Sequence record: NC_007827.1
Direction: 5' to 3' (one strand)
DNA: 6,259 bases
From: Escherichia phage NC29
The position numbers and the translations under genes are program-made. Shown one piece after another: positions 1 through 5,281 of this stretch; the stretch's first letter is position 1; the number at the start of each line of letters is the position of its first letter. Below the pieces are notes generated by a model that had not been told where the DNA came from, did not search any database, and worked only from the letters and a program-made list of their open reading frames with translations.

Positions 1-64
1 TTATTGACAACTCCCAATCCCTTATGAGACTCTTGCTTCAATTAAATGACGTAGGAGTCTTTTT

Positions 65-433
65 ATGAAACCCGCTCATCGCCTTACTCATCCAATTCTT
101 GGTTCTTGGTTGTTTAAGTGTCCTGTTTATATTCGTTATGAGTCGCTTCATCATGGTCGCCTTATCAAGGTCCGTGCTGTTCGTGATTTGTCCCCTCGTC
201 AACGATTGATTGCTAATCCTAAGAATTGCTTTGACGTTGTTATTGCTGAAATTGATCTTACTTATGAAACCGTTACTTGGTTTGATTTTATGGATGAGGA
301 ATATGCCGCGTGTACCCCCGAGGTTATGCAGCTTCTCATTTCCTCTATTGACTCTTCTGATGTTATTCGTTCTGTAGAAGACCCGACCGTTGATTCAGGT
401 GATATGGATTGGCTTTATGAAATTGTGGAGTAA
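65..433 (+). CDS. hypothetical protein, H-A spacer ORF1 (122 aa; basic N-terminal half, strongly acidic C-terminal half)
   Basis: ATG at 65 preceded by SD-like TAGGAG (52-57, 7-nt spacing); uninterrupted 122-codon frame ending TAA 431-433; third codon positions strongly T-biased like the core phage genes; no resemblance I can recognise to phiX174 proteins A-H. Confidence 0.6.
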   Translation: MKPAHRLTHPILGSWLFKCPVYIRYESLHHGRLIKVRAVRDLSPRQRLIANPKNCFDVVIAEIDLTYETVTWFDFMDEEYAACTPEVMQLLISSIDSSDVIRSVEDPTVDSGDMDWLYEIVE

Positions 434-436
434 TTT

Positions 437-529
437 ATGGAAACTGTTATCGGAAAATTTATTGCTCTGGCTGTTGTTGCTCTTATGCTGTATGGAATTT
501 CCCGCTTGATTAGTAGGACTTTGAAATGA
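437..529 (+). CDS. hypothetical small hydrophobic peptide, H-A spacer ORF2 (30 aa, METVIGKFIALAVVALMLYGISRLISRTLK)
   Basis: ATG 437 lies 3 nt after the ORF1 stop, with GGAG (427-430) at 6-nt spacing; a hydrophobic core long enough for one transmembrane helix followed by a basic tail; T-biased third positions. Below the 60-aa cutoff of the supplied ORF track, found by hand translation. Confidence 0.4.
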   Translation: METVIGKFIALAVVALMLYGISRLISRTLK

Positions 530-702
530 AGTATTTTAGCCTTGTGGATGAACACTATGCTTATTGCCCTGATTCGCGCATTTTGCACATCACTCGTAGT
601 CGTGTTTCTGACCCTCGGTATGAGCGTCGTTTTCTTACTGATGAGGAGCATCTTGCACTTCTGGATTGGTTGAAAAATCGCCCAACTTATATTAATTCTT
701 GA
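526..702 (+). CDS. hypothetical protein, H-A spacer ORF3 (58 aa, MKYFSLVDEHYAYCPDSRILHITRSRVSDPRYERRFLTDEEHLALLDWLKNRPTYINS)
   Basis: ATG 526-528 overlaps the ORF2 stop TGA 527-529 (ATGA coupling); AGGA (515-518) at 7-nt spacing; T-biased third positions; stop TGA 700-702. Found by hand translation. Confidence 0.5.
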   Translation: MKYFSLVDEHYAYCPDSRILHITRSRVSDPRYERRFLTDEEHLALLDWLKNRPTYINS

Positions 703-728
703 CAAGTCTTTGATACACCGTCTATATT
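699..728 (+). promoter_or_regulatory. sigma70-like promoter upstream of gene A (pA-like): TTGACA - 18 nt - TATATT
   Basis: -35 TTGACA at 699-704 (6/6 consensus), 18-nt spacer, -10 TATATT at 723-728 (5/6); position equivalent to phiX174 pA just upstream of gene A. Confidence 0.45.
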
Positions 729-759
729 GCCCTCATAGTGATTCTACGAGGGCTTTTTT
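729..759 (+). terminator. intrinsic terminator-like hairpin plus T6 tract (T_H-like) immediately upstream of the gene A start
   Basis: GCCCTC (729-734) pairs with GAGGGC (748-753) and TAG (736-738) with CTA (744-746), 5-nt loop, followed by TTTTTT 754-759; GC-rich stem plus U-tract is the classic rho-independent architecture. Confidence 0.55.
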
Positions 760-761
760 GC

Positions 762-2246
762 ATGGCTACTGAAAACTTCTTCGATGTTGTTAAGACCGTC
801 TGGTCCCACGCTACGGCTAAGCACGCCCATCTTCGTATGGCTGTTCAGGTTGATAACCGCAGTCGCCTTCTCTCTGACCTCGTTTATCAGTTGGAAAAAC
901 GTCTTTCTGAAGAAACTCATCTGGATGATGAGACTTATTCCCTTTATGAATCTCAAACTGGTTTCTTGGAAGACCATATGTCTCTGGTTCGGAAGTGTGC
1001 TGCCCAACTTGATAATAGTAACACTATAGACCACCGTACCTCTTTGGATGCCGAATGTGTTTTCCTGTTTGAAATGATTTGCCCGGGTGTTCGCTACGGT
1101 AAAACGTTGAATTCTCTTTGGACTAAGTATGTTGCTCAATGGCCTGAGAAGTTAATTCGTCAAGAGTTAGACATGGTTAAGCCTTTATCCTTTAAGGATG
1201 AGGTTGCTAGGTACATGGAGAAGATGCAGGAAAAAACACGCAAAAATCGCATGACTCAAAAAGTAATTAATGAGATGCGTATTGCTCACCAAAAGGGCTG
1301 GTTTTTCGTATTTGATACTTTGACACTTGCTGATGACCGTTTGCAGGCTTTTAATGAAAACCCCAATGCTCTTCGTGATTATTTCAGGACTGTTGGTCGA
1401 GCTGTTCTGCGCGCTGAAGGTCGTTCGGTTAAGGATTCCTACAACGACTGCTATCGCTATCTTTGTGTGCCGGAGTTTGGAGGTCAGCACGGTCGTCTTC
1501 ATTGGCACGTTGTGCATATGGTGCGGACTCTTCCTTTGGGAAGTCACGACCCTAATTTCGGTCGCAAGGTACGTAATTATCGCCAGATTAACTCGTTCCG
1601 TGGCATGTGGCCTTATGGCTTCACGCAACCGATAGCTGTACGCTATCAACATGATGCTTATTCTCGCAAAGGTTGGTTGTGGCCTGTTGACAAATCAGGT
1701 AAAGCAATGCAGAGTAAGCCCTATCAGGCGGTCGCATGGTATGTGACCAAGTATGTAGCCAAGCAATCTGACCAGCGTCAGAAAGCTATTACTGAGAGAC
1801 AAAAAAAATGCAAGAATCCACTTATGGCAATCTGTCTGAAAAAGGAATTCAGAGTTCGCAGCAGCCGGAAGCTCGGAATGGAGTTACCGTCGATGGCGCA
1901 TCTCAGCAACAAAGTGCTTCTGGAGCTGAGTCGAATCAGCTTCGATTCCAGCCCTCTGTATCAGATAGTGAAAGAGAACGCCAAAAAGCAATTGACCTTG
2001 AACATCGGCGCGCTGCCTTTGCACGTCATTTTGGATGTGCGCCCGGAAGTGAGAAGTATGTTGAAAAATATCCGTCGTTTGATGAAAAAGACACCCGAGT
2101 TCAATTGGCAGAGTTCTATCGCTTCAATGACGGTCACCTTAAAAAATGGGGATATTTCTGATGAAGCACGTCAATACATTATTGATGCAGGAATTACGCC
2201 TTTTGATTTGCGAGCTAAAGCGACTCAAACTTTCGGCGGTAAGTGA
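762..2246 (+). CDS. A: replication initiation protein A (rolling-circle HUH endonuclease)
   Basis: Alignable along most of its length to phiX174 gpA as I remember it: HUH motif in HGRLHWHVVHMVRTLP, twin catalytic tyrosines in YVTKYVAKQSD, and GWFFVFDTLTLADDRL. The track ORF begins at GTG 738; I prefer the first ATG (762, MATENFF...). Stop TGA 2244-2246. Confidence 0.9.
   Translation: MATENFFDVVKTVWSHATAKHAHLRMAVQVDNRSRLLSDLVYQLEKRLSEETHLDDETYSLYESQTGFLEDHMSLVRKCAAQLDNSNTIDHRTSLDAECVFLFEMICPGVRYGKTLNSLWTKYVAQWPEKLIRQELDMVKPLSFKDEVARYMEKMQEKTRKNRMTQKVINEMRIAHQKGWFFVFDTLTLADDRLQAFNENPNALRDYFRTVGRAVLRAEGRSVKDSYNDCYRYLCVPEFGGQHGRLHWHVVHMVRTLPLGSHDPNFGRKVRNYRQINSFRGMWPYGFTQPIAVRYQHDAYSRKGWLWPVDKSGKAMQSKPYQAVAWYVTKYVAKQSDQRQKAITERQKKCKNPLMAICLKKEFRVRSSRKLGMELPSMAHLSNKVLLELSRISFDSSPLYQIVKENAKKQLTLNIGALPLHVILDVRPEVRSMLKNIRRLMKKTPEFNWQSSIASMTVTLKNGDISDEARQYIIDAGITPFDLRAKATQTFGGK
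1015..1044 (+). other. viral (+) strand replication origin, 30-nt gpA recognition/nick site inside gene A
   Basis: CAACTTGATAATAGTAACACTATAGACCAC matches the phiX174 30-nt origin CAACTTGATATTAATAACACTATAGACCAC (from memory) at 28/30 positions, both differences in the AT-rich spacer; the expected nick is between G1021 and A1022. Confidence 0.75.
1224..2246 (+). CDS. A*: A* (in-frame internal restart of A), start codon tentative
   Basis: phiX174 A* begins at an internal Met (MKSRRGF...) about 25 residues before the conserved GWF motif; the equivalent position here is flanked by in-frame ATGs at 1215, 1224 and 1251. None has a convincing SD, so the exact start is not determinable from sequence. 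Confidence 0.3.
   Translation: MQEKTRKNRMTQKVINEMRIAHQKGWFFVFDTLTLADDRLQAFNENPNALRDYFRTVGRAVLRAEGRSVKDSYNDCYRYLCVPEFGGQHGRLHWHVVHMVRTLPLGSHDPNFGRKVRNYRQINSFRGMWPYGFTQPIAVRYQHDAYSRKGWLWPVDKSGKAMQSKPYQAVAWYVTKYVAKQSDQRQKAITERQKKCKNPLMAICLKKEFRVRSSRKLGMELPSMAHLSNKVLLELSRISFDSSPLYQIVKENAKKQLTLNIGALPLHVILDVRPEVRSMLKNIRRLMKKTPEFNWQSSIASMTVTLKNGDISDEARQYIIDAGITPFDLRAKATQTFGGK
1808..2161 (+). CDS. B: internal scaffolding protein B (encoded within A in another frame)
   Basis: 117 aa; C-terminus ...RVQLAEFYRFNDGHLKKWGYF parallels phiX174 gpB ...RIQPAEFYRFHDAEVNTFGYF; acidic, Q/S-rich N-terminal half; entirely nested in gene A. Confidence 0.85.
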   Translation: MQESTYGNLSEKGIQSSQQPEARNGVTVDGASQQQSASGAESNQLRFQPSVSDSERERQKAIDLEHRRAAFARHFGCAPGSEKYVEKYPSFDEKDTRVQLAEFYRFNDGHLKKWGYF

Positions 2247-2479: not shown

Positions 2480-2712
2480 CTCATAGATAAATGAAGCAGT
2501 GGTGCAAAGTAGTTTATCTAAGTGGTAAGTTCAGTGAAGGGTGACCCGCTCTAAGTAGCTGAAGGGTGTTGGATGTAAGGACTCCGCGATTGACTGGTTT
2601 ATACTGGAACACTATCGGGTCAGTGAAGTGGCTGCTGAGAAATAGCCCTCTAGCTTTACGAAGACTAGGCTACATCGCGAACACCATTGTTACTTTTTTA
2701 TGGAGGATTTAT

Positions 2713-3280: not shown

Positions 3281-4564
3281 ATGTCAAATGTACAAACTTC
3301 CGCTGAGCGTATCCCTCATGACCTGTCTCATCTGGTTTTTGAAGCAGGCAAAATTGGTCGTTTAAAAGTTGTTTCTTGGACTCCTGTTGTTGCAGGTGAT
3401 TCTTTTGAGCTTGATATGATTGGCGCTATTCGCCTCTCCCCGCTTCGTCGTGGTCTTGCTGTTGACTCTCGCGTTGACTTGTTCACGTTTTATGTTCCTC
3501 ATCGTCATGTATATGGTGAGCAGTGGATTGAGTTTATTAAGGAAGGTGTCAATGCTCCACCGTTGGCTCCTGTTCAGTGCTCTCGTGGTTGGGATAGTGC
3601 GCAGTATCTCGCTACTATTCCGTCTTCTAACTTAAAGGTTCCTAAGTTCCTTCATCAAGGTTACTTGAACATTTACAATAACTATTTTAAAGCTCCGTGG
3701 ATGGATGACTTGACTTATGCCAACCCATCTAATATGGAAGGTGAAGATGTTCGTTTTGGTGTTCGTGCATGTAATTTAAAAACTATCTGGACTGCTCCGC
3801 TTCCTCCAGATACTGAGACTTCTCATTCTATGGAGACCGAGACCAACTCCATTGACATTATGGGTTTACAGGCCGCTTATGCTCAATTACATACCGAGCA
3901 GGAGCGTGATTACTTCATGACTCGTTATCGTGATATTGTTAACGAATTTGGTGGTAGTACTTCTTATGATGCGGATAATCGTCCTTTGCTTGTTATGCAT
4001 TCTGAGTTCTGGGCCTCAGGCTATGACGTCGACGGCACCGACCAAAGCTCTCTCGGTCAGTTCTCCGGTCGTGTTCAGCAGACGTTTAAGCATTCAGTAC
4101 CGCGATTCTTCTGTCCTGAGCATGGCACTATGTTCACACTCGCATTGGTCCGCTTCCCTCCGACTCATGAAATGGAGATGCATTACTTAGTTGGTAAAGA
4201 AAATTTGACTTATACTGATCTGGCTTGTGATCCTGCTTTGATGGCTAACTTGCCTCCGCGTGAGGTTAATATGTCTCAGTTCTTCCATTCTGGAAGTGCT
4301 AGTGCTAAGTTTAAGATCGCTGAGGGTCAGTGGTATCGTATGCAGCCTGACCGCGTTGCATTGCCGTATAACTATCTTGATGGTTTTCCGTTCTATAGTG
4401 CGATTCCGTCTCATGATATTAAGCAGCGTGTTCTGGTTAATACTGATAACTATGATGAGGTTTTCCAGTCTATGCAGCTTGCACACTGGAATATGCAGAC
4501 TAAGTTTAACTGCACGATTTATCGTAATATGCCGACCACTCGTGATTCTATTATGACCTCTTGA
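3281..4564 (+). CDS. F: major capsid protein F
   Basis: 427 aa; long blocks match phiX174 gpF (MSN.QT.AER.PHDLSHL, LRLSPLRRGLA.DS.VD.FTFYVPHRHVYGEQWI, QGYLNIYNNYFKAPWM, SIDIMGLQAAYA.LHT.QERDYFM.RYRD, SYDADNRPLLVM, GYDVDGTDQ.SLGQFSGRVQQT.KHSVPRFF.PEHGTMFTLALVRFPPT, TTRDSIMTS). Confidence 0.95.
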   Translation: MSNVQTSAERIPHDLSHLVFEAGKIGRLKVVSWTPVVAGDSFELDMIGAIRLSPLRRGLAVDSRVDLFTFYVPHRHVYGEQWIEFIKEGVNAPPLAPVQCSRGWDSAQYLATIPSSNLKVPKFLHQGYLNIYNNYFKAPWMDDLTYANPSNMEGEDVRFGVRACNLKTIWTAPLPPDTETSHSMETETNSIDIMGLQAAYAQLHTEQERDYFMTRYRDIVNEFGGSTSYDADNRPLLVMHSEFWASGYDVDGTDQSSLGQFSGRVQQTFKHSVPRFFCPEHGTMFTLALVRFPPTHEMEMHYLVGKENLTYTDLACDPALMANLPPREVNMSQFFHSGSASAKFKIAEGQWYRMQPDRVALPYNYLDGFPFYSAIPSHDIKQRVLVNTDNYDEVFQSMQLAHWNMQTKFNCTIYRNMPTTRDSIMTS

Positions 4565-5146: not shown

Positions 5147-5160
5147 AAGGCCGCCGCACT

Positions 5161-5256
5161 CTCGGTTATATGCCTGCCCAGTGTAGGGCGGACCGAGCCG
5201 TACGGAGATACCCGTGAAACTAGGAACGTGGAAGGCGTTAGCCGCCTTCCCTCCTG
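5161..5256 (+). other. candidate complementary (-) strand origin: three consecutive stem-loops in the GC-rich G-H spacer
   Basis: Hairpins: CTCGGT 5161-5166 / ACCGAG 5192-5197 enclosing 5174-5179 / 5186-5191; ACGG 5202-5205 / CCGT 5212-5215; GGAAGGCG 5230-5237 / CGCCTTCC 5243-5250 (perfect 8-bp stem, 5-nt loop); CTG at 5254-5256 just 3' of the last hairpin. G4-type phages prime at a multi-hairpin origin with DnaG alone. Confidence 0.4.
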
Positions 5257-5281
5257 CTAAGCCCAAAGGAGACTTTCAGCT

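What the first reader, a model, noticed from the sequence alone, without database searches (positions are those of the whole stretch)
526..702. ORF3 (58 aa) is coupled by an ATGA overlap and ends inside the gene A promoter
ORF3 starts within the ORF2 stop codon and its TGA (700-702) lies inside the TTGACA -35 hexamer (699-704) of the pA-like promoter, so the coding block abuts the gene A control region with zero spacer. The protein has a basic central segment (HITRSRVSDPRYERRF) and a short helix-like C-terminal region (EEHLALLDWLKN). Its function is unknown; a small nucleic-acid-binding or regulatory protein is possible.
Basis: partly seen in the sequence, partly recalled or inferred. Interest (0 to 1): 0.45.

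Follow-up and report, generated by a model that had tools for sequence, protein, structure and literature searches.

The report
Conserved small gene abutting pA promoter
ORF3 is a genuine, strongly conserved 58-residue gene of unknown function. All alpha3-like microviruses carry it just upstream of the gene A promoter, and the overlap of its stop codon with that promoter is ordinary genome packing, not a regulatory device.

Summary
The window is a complete alpha3-like microvirus genome (Alphatrevirus, probably coliphage NC29). ORF3 is 526-702 (58 aa). Its ATG overlaps the ORF2 stop (ATGA, 526-529). Its TGA (700-702) lies inside TTGACA (699-704), the -35 of the best sigma-70-like site in the window (TTGACA-18-TATATT).

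ORF3 is a real gene. In 26 distinct relatives the frame is kept. pN/pS is 0.08-0.19 in this frame only, comparable to essential genes A, C, D and H. The stop/start junction is kept in two different sequence versions: AGGA-ATGA and GGAGG-GTGA.

It is the last of three genes (ORF1, ORF2, ORF3) that fill the H-A "intergenic" region. Two phiX174-like pA-T_H promoter/terminator modules bracket them.

AlphaFold2 predicts a four-strand sheet plus a C-terminal helix (pLDDT 82). There are no homologues outside ~6-kb alpha3-like genomes, no Pfam/PHROG/NCBIfam/PADLOC hit and no significant fold match. Nucleic-acid binding is therefore neither supported nor excluded.

[quoted passage not shown] ORF3 is annotated as a hypothetical protein in phage Lilleven. 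Verdict: real, already known, function open, modest interest.

The parts
4..9 (+). TTGACA hexamer 3 nt after the gene H stop (the H stop is the last codon of the window; the genome is circular). It is the positional and sequence homologue of the phiX174 and G4 pA -35, but no -10 follows it here.
   Evidence: Conserved in all relatives. Aligns with phiX174 TTGACA-CCCTCCCAAT and G4 TTGACT. Not listed as a promoter by the scan.
26..64 (+). Hairpin (26-61) plus T-run (60-64): a T_H-like intrinsic terminator directly after H. Its 3' arm holds the ORF1 Shine-Dalgarno GGAG (54-57).
   Evidence: MFE -16.9 kcal/mol. The stem is conserved, with GT/GC/AT variation at pair 35-52. Function is inferred by analogy with phiX174 T_H.
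65..433 (+). ORF1, 122 aa, first gene of the cassette. The N-terminal 66 residues are almost invariant, the middle is hypervariable and the C-terminus is acidic and conserved.
   Evidence: pN/pS 0.26-0.27 in this frame only. Present in all relatives. AF2 pLDDT 88.6. Annotated as hypothetical protein QBZ71502.1 in Lilleven.
437..529 (+). ORF2, 30 aa, a hydrophobic membrane-type peptide with a basic C-terminus. SD GGAG at 427-430. Its TGA (527-529) overlaps the ORF3 start.
   Evidence: Conserved in all relatives. Lilleven QBZ71503.1. The selection signal is ambiguous between this frame (0.41-0.52) and the +1 frame (0.25-0.26).
515..518 (+). AGGA, the Shine-Dalgarno-like element for ORF3, 7 nt upstream of the ATG.
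   Evidence: Read from the sequence. In 18 relatives it is replaced by GGAGG 5 nt upstream of a GTG start. The alpha3 record M25640 annotates a ribosome-binding site at exactly this place (1713-1718).
526..702 (+). ORF3, 58 aa (7.1 kDa, pI 6.8): the finding. Predicted fold is four beta-strands (2-6, 9-14, 19-24, 31-36) plus a helix (39-51).
   Evidence: frame and length conserved. (pN/pS 0.08-0.19). (AF2 pLDDT 82.4). (Lilleven QBZ71504.1, hypothetical protein).
699..728 (+). pA-like sigma-70 promoter: -35 TTGACA (699-704), 18-nt spacer, -10 TATATT (723-728). The ORF3 stop TGA is 700-702.
   Evidence: 11 of 12 match, best in the window. Hexamers and spacer length are conserved while the spacer sequence varies. 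Same layout as phiX174 pA, with its annotated TSS at 3962, and as G4.
729..759 (+). Hairpin (729-753) plus T-run (754-759): a T_H-like terminator for transcripts arriving from upstream. The predicted pA start (~735) falls inside the 5' arm, so pA transcripts would lack the hairpin. The 3' arm holds the gene A SD GAGGG (748-752).
   Evidence: MFE -13.8 kcal/mol, z = -3.0. Pair 736-746 is TA in 18 sequences and AT in 7, a compensatory change. Pair 735-747 is an AC mismatch in 17 and an AT pair in 8. TSS position is inferred from phiX174.
762..2246 (+). Gene A (replication initiator), the gene served by the promoter that overlaps the ORF3 stop.
   Evidence: Annotated at the equivalent position in all reference genomes. 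Pfam Phage_GPA on metagenomic relatives.

Best explanation
ORF3 is a genuine protein-coding gene. It is the last of three small genes (ORF1 65-433, ORF2 437-529, ORF3 526-702) that every alpha3-like microvirus carries in what reference annotations call the H-A intergenic region.

Shown:
- Frame, length and start/stop placement are conserved in 26 distinct genomes.
- Purifying selection acts in this frame only, as strongly as on essential genes.
- The product is confidently predicted to fold.

Inferred, expression:
- The gene is read from rightward late mRNAs that pass the hairpin/T-run just after H (26-64) and end at the hairpin/T-run 729-759, making ORF3 the last cistron.
- Ribosomes start at its own Shine-Dalgarno element and/or re-initiate after terminating at the overlapping ORF2 stop (A/GTGA). 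This would tie ORF3 output to ORF2.

Inferred, function:
- The product is a 7-kDa four-strand beta-sheet plus C-terminal helix domain. It has no catalytic motif and no relatives outside this genus, so it most likely acts by binding a partner.
- My best guess is a conserved protein partner, acting together with the co-translated ORF2 membrane peptide as an accessory module. Nucleic-acid binding is the runner-up.

The stop codon inside the -35 hexamer is a packing consequence. The combined pA-T_H promoter/terminator element starts where coding ends, as it does 3 nt after H in G4 and 9 nt after H in phiX174. TTGACA happens to contain TGA. It is not a translational control of the promoter.
For: Identity of the window: an alpha3-like genome, 92.9% identical to NC3.

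Conservation:
- The H-A region is present in all 24 alpha3-like records.
- The order H-ORF1-ORF2-ORF3-A is the same on metagenomic ~6.1-kb contigs.
- ORF3 is 58 aa in 24 of 26 distinct sequences.

Selection:
- pN/pS is 0.08 (13 genomes) or 0.19 (26 sequences) with pS 0.31-0.33.
- For comparison: A 0.06, C 0.07, D 0.14, H 0.19, F 0.30, G 0.63.
- The other frames give a ratio >=1 or carry stops.
- Variable columns by codon position are 10/6/29 (chi-square p = 4e-5).

Junction with ORF2: it occurs in two sequence versions, AGGA-7 nt-ATGA in 8 sequences (7 with the overlap; in ID32 the ORF2 stop ends 1 nt before the ATG) and GGAGG-5 nt-GTGA in 18. Both keep the close stop/start coupling. The weaker SD goes with the stronger start codon.

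Structure: AF2 pLDDT 82.4, pTM 0.63. The BFVD model of the Lilleven orthologue superposes at TM 0.93.

Promoter and terminator: with phiX174 and G4 layouts. In phiX174 the combined pA-T_H element passes a net 0.29-fold of the transcriptional current (bioRxiv 10.1101/2020.03.05.979765).

Link to ORF2: strict co-occurrence. One natural in-frame ORF2-ORF3 fusion (P0003) exists, but on a 2.2x-coverage contig.
Against: - There are no expression data (RNA, ribosome profiling or protein) for any alpha3-like phage in what I could search.
- The Rokyta, RefSeq and original alpha3, phiK and St-1 records do not annotate the ORF.
- phiK (X60323) has TTGGCA, so ORF3 reads through to 70 aa. One assembly (L018) has a 1-nt insertion that changes the last residues.
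- ORF1's SD sits in the 3' arm of a stable hairpin and no consensus promoter precedes ORF1. How much mRNA and translation the cassette gets is therefore unclear.
- The functional guess (protein-binding, with ORF2) rests only on gene arrangement and on the absence of better signals.
- The Arg-rich strands beta3-beta4 and weak, non-significant hits to AP2, integrase-arm and ToxR/OmpR DNA-binding domains point the other way.
- ORF2's own coding status is not settled by substitution patterns.
Confidence: 0.7

Rival explanations
1. ORF3 is a small nucleic-acid-binding regulator. For example, it could bind the pA-T_H element next to its own gene, viral ssDNA or RNA, through the Arg-rich beta3-beta4 hairpin, and so tune gene A expression or replication.
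For: - Invariant R18, R24, R26 and R31, plus near-invariant R34, lie on or next to strands beta3 and beta4.
- A beta-sheet plus C-terminal helix is the general architecture of AP2 and integrase-arm DNA-binding domains (my own knowledge).
- PHROG 638, 'transcriptional regulator', at E 0.16.
- The C-terminal helix resembles one helix of the Pfam HA (helicase-associated) domain.
- The gene ends in the promoter of the most tightly limited phage gene.
Against: - hhalign probability for the HA helix is 27% over 25 columns.
- The protein is net neutral (pI 6.8).
- No conserved operator-like repeat was seen by eye in the pA spacer, which is the most variable stretch of the region.
- Bullavirinae transcription is described as constitutive, with no trans-acting regulators.
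Confidence: 0.2
2. The ORF3 stretch is conserved for a nucleic-acid-level reason (promoter-upstream element, RNA or ssDNA structure, packaging or replication signal), and the open frame is incidental.
For: - Reference annotations treat the whole 760 nt as intergenic.
- The phiX174 H-A region is known to carry cis-acting functions (my own knowledge, not tested here).
Against: - Substitutions are concentrated at third codon positions.
- pS (0.31-0.33) is as high as in ordinary genes, while pN is 0.03-0.06. A nucleic-acid constraint would not spare synonymous sites in one frame only.
- There are no indels across 171 nt in 25 of 26 sequences, while the flanking non-coding stretches do carry indels.
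Confidence: 0.03
3. The functional product of this stretch is the hydrophobic +1-frame ORF (548-673, 41 aa, MNTMLIALIRAFCTSLVVVFLTLGMSVVFLLMRSILHFWIG), an overprinted membrane peptide comparable to E inside D. It would act instead of ORF3 or alongside it.
For: - It is open, with an ATG, in all 26 sequences.
- Overprinted hydrophobic genes are a hallmark of this virus family.
- It is probably one of the 'five conserved reading frames' counted by Rokyta et al..
Against: - pN/pS in its frame is 1.04-1.12.
- ORF3's synonymous rate is not depressed, as it would be if a second frame were constrained.
- No SD-like element was noted upstream of 548.
- T-rich codon second and third positions of microvirus genes routinely give hydrophobic stop-poor alternative frames (my own knowledge).
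Confidence: 0.04

Closest known systems
Hypothetical protein QBZ71504.1 of Escherichia phage Lilleven (UniProt A0A4D6DYU6), and the unannotated equivalents in alpha3, St-1, phiK, WA13, NC3 and others
   Same: Orthologue: 90% identity, the same 58 aa, the same position between ORF2 and the gene A promoter.
   Different: Nothing material. The window uses ATG with an AGGA SD, whereas Lilleven and most relatives use GTG with GGAGG.
phiX174 combined pA-T_H promoter/terminator element (Logel & Jaschke, bioRxiv 10.1101/2020.03.05.979765), and its G4 counterpart
   Same: -35 TTGACA/TTGACT, a 17-18-nt spacer, a -10, then immediately a GC-rich hairpin plus T-run whose 3' arm carries the gene A SD, then the ATG. 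The upstream coding region ends within a few nt of the -35.
   Different: - Here the upstream coding region is ORF3, not H, and the spacer is zero: the stop lies inside the hexamer.
- A second, promoter-less copy of the module (TTGACA 4-9, hairpin 26-64) remains right after H. It is the copy more similar in sequence to phiX174.
Translationally coupled overlapping stop/start pairs (ATGA/GTGA), as at the D/J and A/C-K junctions of Bullavirinae and in many bacterial operons (my own knowledge)
   Same: A four-base overlap of stop and start, with an SD inside the upstream gene.
   Different: Coupling was not tested experimentally. The upstream partner is a 29-30-aa peptide whose own coding status is not fully settled.
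Gene K of phiX174-like phages (a small non-essential accessory protein)
   Same: A small lineage-restricted accessory gene of a microvirus with no enzymatic motif.
   Different: No sequence or fold relation. K is overprinted on A/C and is hydrophobic. ORF3 is a soluble beta/alpha domain in its own non-overlapped stretch and is much more strongly conserved.
AP2 / integrase arm-type DNA-binding domains (beta-sheet packed on a C-terminal helix)
   Same: Similar size and overall beta-sheet-then-helix order. Arg residues on the sheet.
   Different: No significant structural or sequence match (Foldseek E 0.68, TM 0.37). ORF3 has four predicted strands rather than three.

Membership tests
Alphatrevirus H-A ORF3 family (Lilleven QBZ71504.1-like) | Sequence similarity over the full length | tested here: met
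   76-97% identity over 88-100% of the query (full length for 8 of 10) to 10 clusters. The 90% cluster that holds the window's exact sequence has 107 members.
Alphatrevirus H-A ORF3 family (Lilleven QBZ71504.1-like) | Synteny: H - ORF1 - ORF2 - ORF3 - pA - gene A on a ~6-kb microvirus genome | tested here: met
phiX174-type pA-T_H element | Sigma-70 hexamers with 17-18-nt spacing, directly upstream of gene A | tested here: met
   TTGACA-18-TATATT, 11 of 12. Conserved hexamers and spacer length.
phiX174-type pA-T_H element | GC-rich hairpin plus T-run starting right after the -10, with the gene A SD in the 3' arm | tested here: met
   Hairpin 729-753 at -13.8 kcal/mol, z = -3.0, T-run 754-759. 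One compensatory pair. Layout matches.
phiX174-type pA-T_H element | Transcription start inside the hairpin, and measurable termination of upstream transcripts | not testable with these tools
   Needs 5'/3' end mapping. The phiX174 TSS at 3962 is annotated in NC_001422.
Translationally coupled gene pair | Overlapping or abutting stop and start codons, conserved among relatives | tested here: met
   NTGA in 25 of 26. In ID32 the stop ends 1 nt before the ATG.
Translationally coupled gene pair | Downstream translation depends on upstream translation | not testable with these tools
   Needs reporter fusions.
AP2 / integrase-arm DNA-binding domain | Significant profile or fold match to the family | tested here: not met
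Pfam HA (helicase-associated) domain PF03457 | Match to the whole three-helix domain | tested here: not met
   Only the C-terminal 22-25 residues resemble one helix of the repeats in P0011 (hhalign probability 27%). Pfam does not hit ORF3.
Known anti-defence / defence proteins (PADLOC) and NCBIfam families | Profile match | tested here: not met
   No hits at E <= 1.

The most novel reading that the evidence does not exclude
ORF3 is a trans-acting nucleic-acid-binding factor that works on the adjacent pA-T_H element, or on the viral strand there, to set gene A expression or the replication switch. That would be the first phage-encoded regulator in the Bullavirinae, whose gene expression is thought to be entirely constitutive. 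It would also explain why a 58-aa accessory gene is as conserved as the essential genes.
Probability: 0.1. Interest if true: 0.6.

Novelty: already known. Interest (0 to 1): 0.3.

Why it matters
Alpha3, St-1 and phiK are classic model phages, yet their reference annotations leave 760 nt (12% of the genome) as intergenic. This analysis shows that at least two of the reading frames there, ORF1 and ORF3, are under purifying selection as strong as that on the essential genes. Both are predicted to fold, and neither has a relative anywhere outside these ~6-kb genomes. In practical terms, the reference records should carry these genes. Scientifically, a 7-kDa orphan protein this conserved in a 6-kb virus must do something that matters in nature. 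It is cheap to test by knock-out in a synthetic genome, as was done for phiX174.

Tried and rejected
1. Family assignment. Pfam, PHROGs, NCBIfam and PADLOC gave nothing at E < 0.1 for ORF1-3. A PDB sequence profile search gave only a 31-residue chance-level match to amicoumacin kinase (E 0.036).

2. Remote homologues. The word-indexed search and the exhaustive HMM search of 1.84 billion representatives found only close orthologues, plus one helicase with HA repeats that matches the C-terminal helix only. I rejected that as homology.

4. Origin by duplication of another phage gene. The ORF3 C-terminus HLALLDWLKNR resembles the gpC C-terminus HKKLLDDLKNR (8 of 11). However, 116 of 500 shuffles reach that score against some phage protein. 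No DNA-level repeat links the H-A region to the rest of the genome. Rejected.

5. Alternative frames. The +1 ORF 548-673 is open in all 26 sequences but has pN/pS ~1.1. The minus-strand ORF 415-705 is interrupted in 18 of 26. Both rejected.

6. A promoter for the cassette. No consensus -10 follows TTGACA 4-9, so I could not show an own promoter for ORF1-3.

7. Literature. Rokyta et al. 2006 (PMC1347346) and Kodaira et al. 1992 are not held. I could therefore not confirm which five ORFs Rokyta counted.

8. Rfam and tRNA scans of the window: nothing relevant.

Full report
WHAT THE WINDOW IS

The 6259-nt window is a complete, circularly permuted genome of an alpha3-like microvirus (Bullavirinae, genus Alphatrevirus). 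It is 92.9% identical to coliphage NC3 over 96% of its length, and 24 alpha3-like records cover at least 80% of it. The gene order is A/A*/B/K/C/D/E/J/F/G/H, with H ending at the last base.

From a table of file sizes in PMC3812135, the one alpha3-group reference genome missing from the phage collection, coliphage NC29 (NC_007827), has about this length. The window is probably NC29; this is an inference.

The finding lies in the 761 nt between the H stop and the gene A ATG (762). All Rokyta, RefSeq and original alpha3, phiK and St-1 records leave this stretch unannotated.

CHECK OF THE OBSERVATION

- ORF3 is 526-702 and encodes 58 aa.
- ORF2 is 437-529, so the ORF2 TGA (527-529) overlaps the ORF3 ATG (526-528) as ATGA.
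- The ORF3 TGA (700-702) lies inside TTGACA (699-704).
- TATATT follows after 18 nt (723-728).

This is the best sigma-70-like site of the whole window, at 11 of 12 positions. The total number of promoter-like sites in the window is not above shuffled controls, so the match by itself proves little.

A hairpin (729-753; -13.8 kcal/mol, z = -3.0) and a T-run (754-759) follow the -10 directly. Then comes the gene A ATG.

IS ORF3 A GENE?

I collected the H-A region from 26 distinct genomes:
- 12 reference records of alpha3-like phages
- Lilleven
- a dog-faeces genome
- 11 metagenomic contigs of about 6.1 kb
- the window itself

These regions are only 79-84% identical to the window, which gives enough divergence to test the frame.

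The frame is conserved.
- ORF3 is 58 aa in 24 of the 26.
- phiK (a 1992 sequence) has TTGGCA and reads through to 70 aa.
- One assembly (L018) has a 1-nt insertion near the 3' end.

Selection acts in the ORF3 frame only. Pooled Nei-Gojobori counts give pN/pS = 0.08 for the 13 complete genomes and 0.19 for all 26, with pS = 0.31-0.33. The two other + frames give 1.0-1.8. One - frame gives 1.07 and is interrupted in 18 of 26 sequences. The other two - frames carry stops in all 26, one of them despite a ratio of 0.34.

On the same 13 genomes the known genes give:

| Gene | pN/pS |
|---|---|
| A | 0.06 |
| C | 0.07 |
| D | 0.14 |
| H | 0.19 |
| F | 0.30 |
| G | 0.63 |

Variable columns fall 10/6/29 on codon positions 1/2/3 (p = 4e-5). 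ORF3 is thus as constrained as the essential genes. Its synonymous rate is not depressed, which argues against a second constrained frame or a nucleic-acid element in the same stretch.

The hydrophobic +1 ORF (548-673) is open in all 26 sequences but evolves neutrally in its own frame (ratio ~1.1).

THE JUNCTION WITH ORF2

Two different junction sequences exist.
- Eight genomes, including the window, have AGGA, 7 nt, then the ATG start.
- Eighteen have GGAGG, 5 nt, then GTGA.

The two versions differ by a 3-nt indel and several substitutions. The stop/start overlap is kept in 25 of 26. In ID32 the ORF2 stop ends 1 nt before the ATG.

The weaker Shine-Dalgarno goes with the stronger start codon and the stronger Shine-Dalgarno with the weaker start. 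The old alpha3 record M25640 already carries a ribosome-binding-site feature at exactly this GGAGG. Translational coupling is therefore plausible and evolutionarily maintained, but it is untested.

THE PROMOTER AND THE STOP CODON

The -35 hexamer is identical in 25 of 26 sequences. The 24 sequences that still hold both hexamers (phiK with TTGGCA among them) all have TATA[T/G]T as the -10 and an 18-nt spacer. The spacer sequence is the most variable part of the region.

The hairpin shows one compensatory pair (736-746: TA in 18 sequences, AT in 7). One mismatch (735-747) is repaired to a pair in 8 sequences.

phiX174 and G4 have the same layout directly after gene H: -35, then a 17-18-nt spacer, then a -10, a GC hairpin, a T-run and the gene A ATG.
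- In G4 the -35 starts 3 nt after the H stop.
- In phiX174 it starts 9 nt after the H stop.
- The phiX174 record places the pA start at 3962, just after the 5' arm of the hairpin.

Logel and Jaschke treat this as one combined pA-T_H element that passes a net 0.29-fold of the transcriptional current (bioRxiv 10.1101/2020.03.05.979765).

By analogy (an inference), upstream transcripts end at 754-759. pA transcripts would start near 735, lack the 5' arm, escape termination and expose the gene A Shine-Dalgarno (748-752).

The ORF3 stop inside TTGACA is then simply the tightest version of a packing that is general in this subfamily. I see no route by which ribosomes terminating on mRNA would act on the DNA promoter.

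One natural genome, NC35, has lost 29 nt that cover both the -10 and the 5' arm. It may express gene A by read-through from the ORF1-3 region. If so, that region is transcribed.

THE WIDER ANATOMY

ORF3 is the third gene of a cassette.
- ORF1 (65-433, 122 aa) has pN/pS 0.27. Its N-terminal 66 residues are nearly invariant, its middle is hypervariable and its C-terminus is acidic and conserved. It is confidently predicted to fold (pLDDT 88.6, pTM 0.81).
- ORF2 (437-529) is a 29-30-aa hydrophobic peptide with a basic tail and a good Shine-Dalgarno.

Right after H there is a second, promoter-less copy of the pA-T_H module. It consists of TTGACA (4-9), a CTCCCAAT box shared with phiX174, a strong hairpin (26-61; -16.9 kcal/mol), a T-run and then the ORF1 ATG. 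The cassette is thus bracketed by two such modules. That pattern fits either an insertion into the ancestral element or a deletion between the repeats in the phiX174 and G4 lineages.

WHAT THE PROTEIN IS

AlphaFold2 on a 10-sequence alignment gives pLDDT 82.4 and pTM 0.63. It predicts four beta-strands (2-6, 9-14, 19-24, 31-36) and a helix (39-51), with the last residues disordered.

Invariant residues include R18, H21, R24, R26, D29, P30, R31, Y32, E40, E41, H42, D47 and W48. The protein is net neutral (pI 6.8).

No family or fold could be assigned.
- Pfam, PHROGs, NCBIfam and PADLOC give nothing better than E = 0.16.
- Searches of 5.8 billion clusters and an exhaustive profile search of 1.84 billion representatives find only orthologues on ~6-kb contigs. 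The one exception is a helicase whose HA repeats resemble the C-terminal helix only.
- Foldseek against PDB gives E >= 0.68, with a Plasmodium AP2 domain first.
- BFVD returns only the Lilleven orthologue, at TM 0.93.

ORF1 is equally orphan.

MECHANISM

Shown: ORF3 is a conserved, selected, foldable coding sequence, with conserved translation signals and a conserved position at the 3' end of the cassette.

Inferred:
- It is the last cistron of late transcripts that read through the first hairpin.
- Its translation is tied to ORF2.
- It acts by binding rather than catalysis.

I favour a conserved protein partner, with the ORF2 peptide. The reasons are the maintained coupling, strict co-occurrence, one low-coverage natural ORF2-ORF3 fusion and the extreme conservation, which is untypical of fast-evolving anti-defence genes. 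This is a weak preference over the nucleic-acid-binding reading, which the Arg-rich sheet and the scatter of sub-threshold DNA-binding-domain hits keep alive.

WHAT IS ALREADY KNOWN

[quoted passage not shown] 2006. I could not read that paper.

Exactly five ORFs are conserved in this region: 65-433, 393/417-509, 437-529, 526-702 and 548-673. Lilleven's record annotates ORF1-3 as hypothetical proteins.

The feature is therefore already known as an ORF. What this analysis adds:
- ORF1 and ORF3 carry a clear coding signal.
- ORF2 is ambiguous.
- The +1-frame ORF 548-673 does not look like a gene. The other overlapping frame, 393/417-509, shares the ORF2 stretch and is as ambiguous as ORF2.
- The stop-in-promoter overlap is compaction.

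VERDICT

The feature is already known, its function remains open, and its interest is modest (0.3).

Noticed in passing
window 2480-2712 (C-D intergenic region), core 2493-2649: This spacer is about 190 nt longer than in the 12 reference alpha3-like genomes. The extra DNA is 75-79% identical (E 5e-23) to an unannotated stretch in ~77-kb Kuravirus podophages (MN03, Bas89, FS2B, XT18 and others). There it sits 30-70 nt upstream of a gene, in the same orientation. Here it sits between the pD-like promoter and gene D, so it would be part of the D mRNA leader. RNAalifold on 6 sequences gives 36 pairs, 8 of them with compensatory double changes. There is no Rfam family and no E. coli chromosome match, and the single-sequence fold z-score is only -0.24. 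It is a candidate new structured leader RNA exchanged between a dsDNA phage lineage and a microvirus.
   Followed up: partly
window 1-64: A second, promoter-less copy of the pA-T_H module lies directly after gene H: TTGACA (4-9), a CTCCCAAT box shared with phiX174, a hairpin at 26-61 (-16.9 kcal/mol), a T-run, then the ORF1 ATG, with the ORF1 SD in the 3' arm. It resembles the phiX174 H-A spacer more than the functional-looking module at 699-761 does. The ORF1-3 cassette is thus flanked by two such modules.
   Followed up: partly
window 65-433 (ORF1): A 122-aa orphan protein. Residues 1-66 are nearly invariant and basic (pI 10.3). Residues ~67-100 are hypervariable. The C-terminus is a conserved acidic motif (DDMDWLYEI). 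pN/pS is 0.27 and AF2 gives pLDDT 88.6 with a mostly beta fold. No homologues exist outside alpha3-like genomes.
   Followed up: partly
window 417-529 (ORF2 437-529 and the +1-frame ORF 417-509): Two overlapping hydrophobic ORFs are both conserved. Substitution patterns do not decide between them: pN/pS is 0.41-0.52 for ORF2 and 0.25-0.26 for the +1 frame, on few changes. ORF2 has the better SD and is the one coupled to ORF1 and ORF3.
   Followed up: partly
L006 (coliphage NC35), equivalent to window 706-734: A natural 29-nt deletion removes the pA -10 hexamer and the 5' arm of the terminator hairpin while keeping TTGACA and the ORF3 stop. Gene A in this viable phage may be expressed by read-through from the ORF1-3 region.
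   Followed up: no
L012 (phiK X60323), equivalent to window 699-704: TTGGCA replaces TTGACA. This weakens the -35 and removes the ORF3 stop, so ORF3 reads on to 70 aa and ends in the hairpin. It is either a real variant or an error in a 1992 sequence.
   Followed up: no
L039 (ENA contig NODE_196078, 761 nt, coverage 2.2x): An in-frame deletion fuses ORF2 residues 1-23 to ORF3 residues 5-58, giving a 78-aa membrane-anchored ORF3 (P0003). It is either a hint that the two products work together or an assembly artefact.
   Followed up: partly
window 5147-5281 (G-H intergenic region): A G+C-rich stretch that looks strongly self-complementary by eye and contrasts with the T-rich coding DNA. It was not analysed here. 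From memory, alpha3-type phages have their primase-dependent complementary-strand origin between G and H.
   Followed up: no
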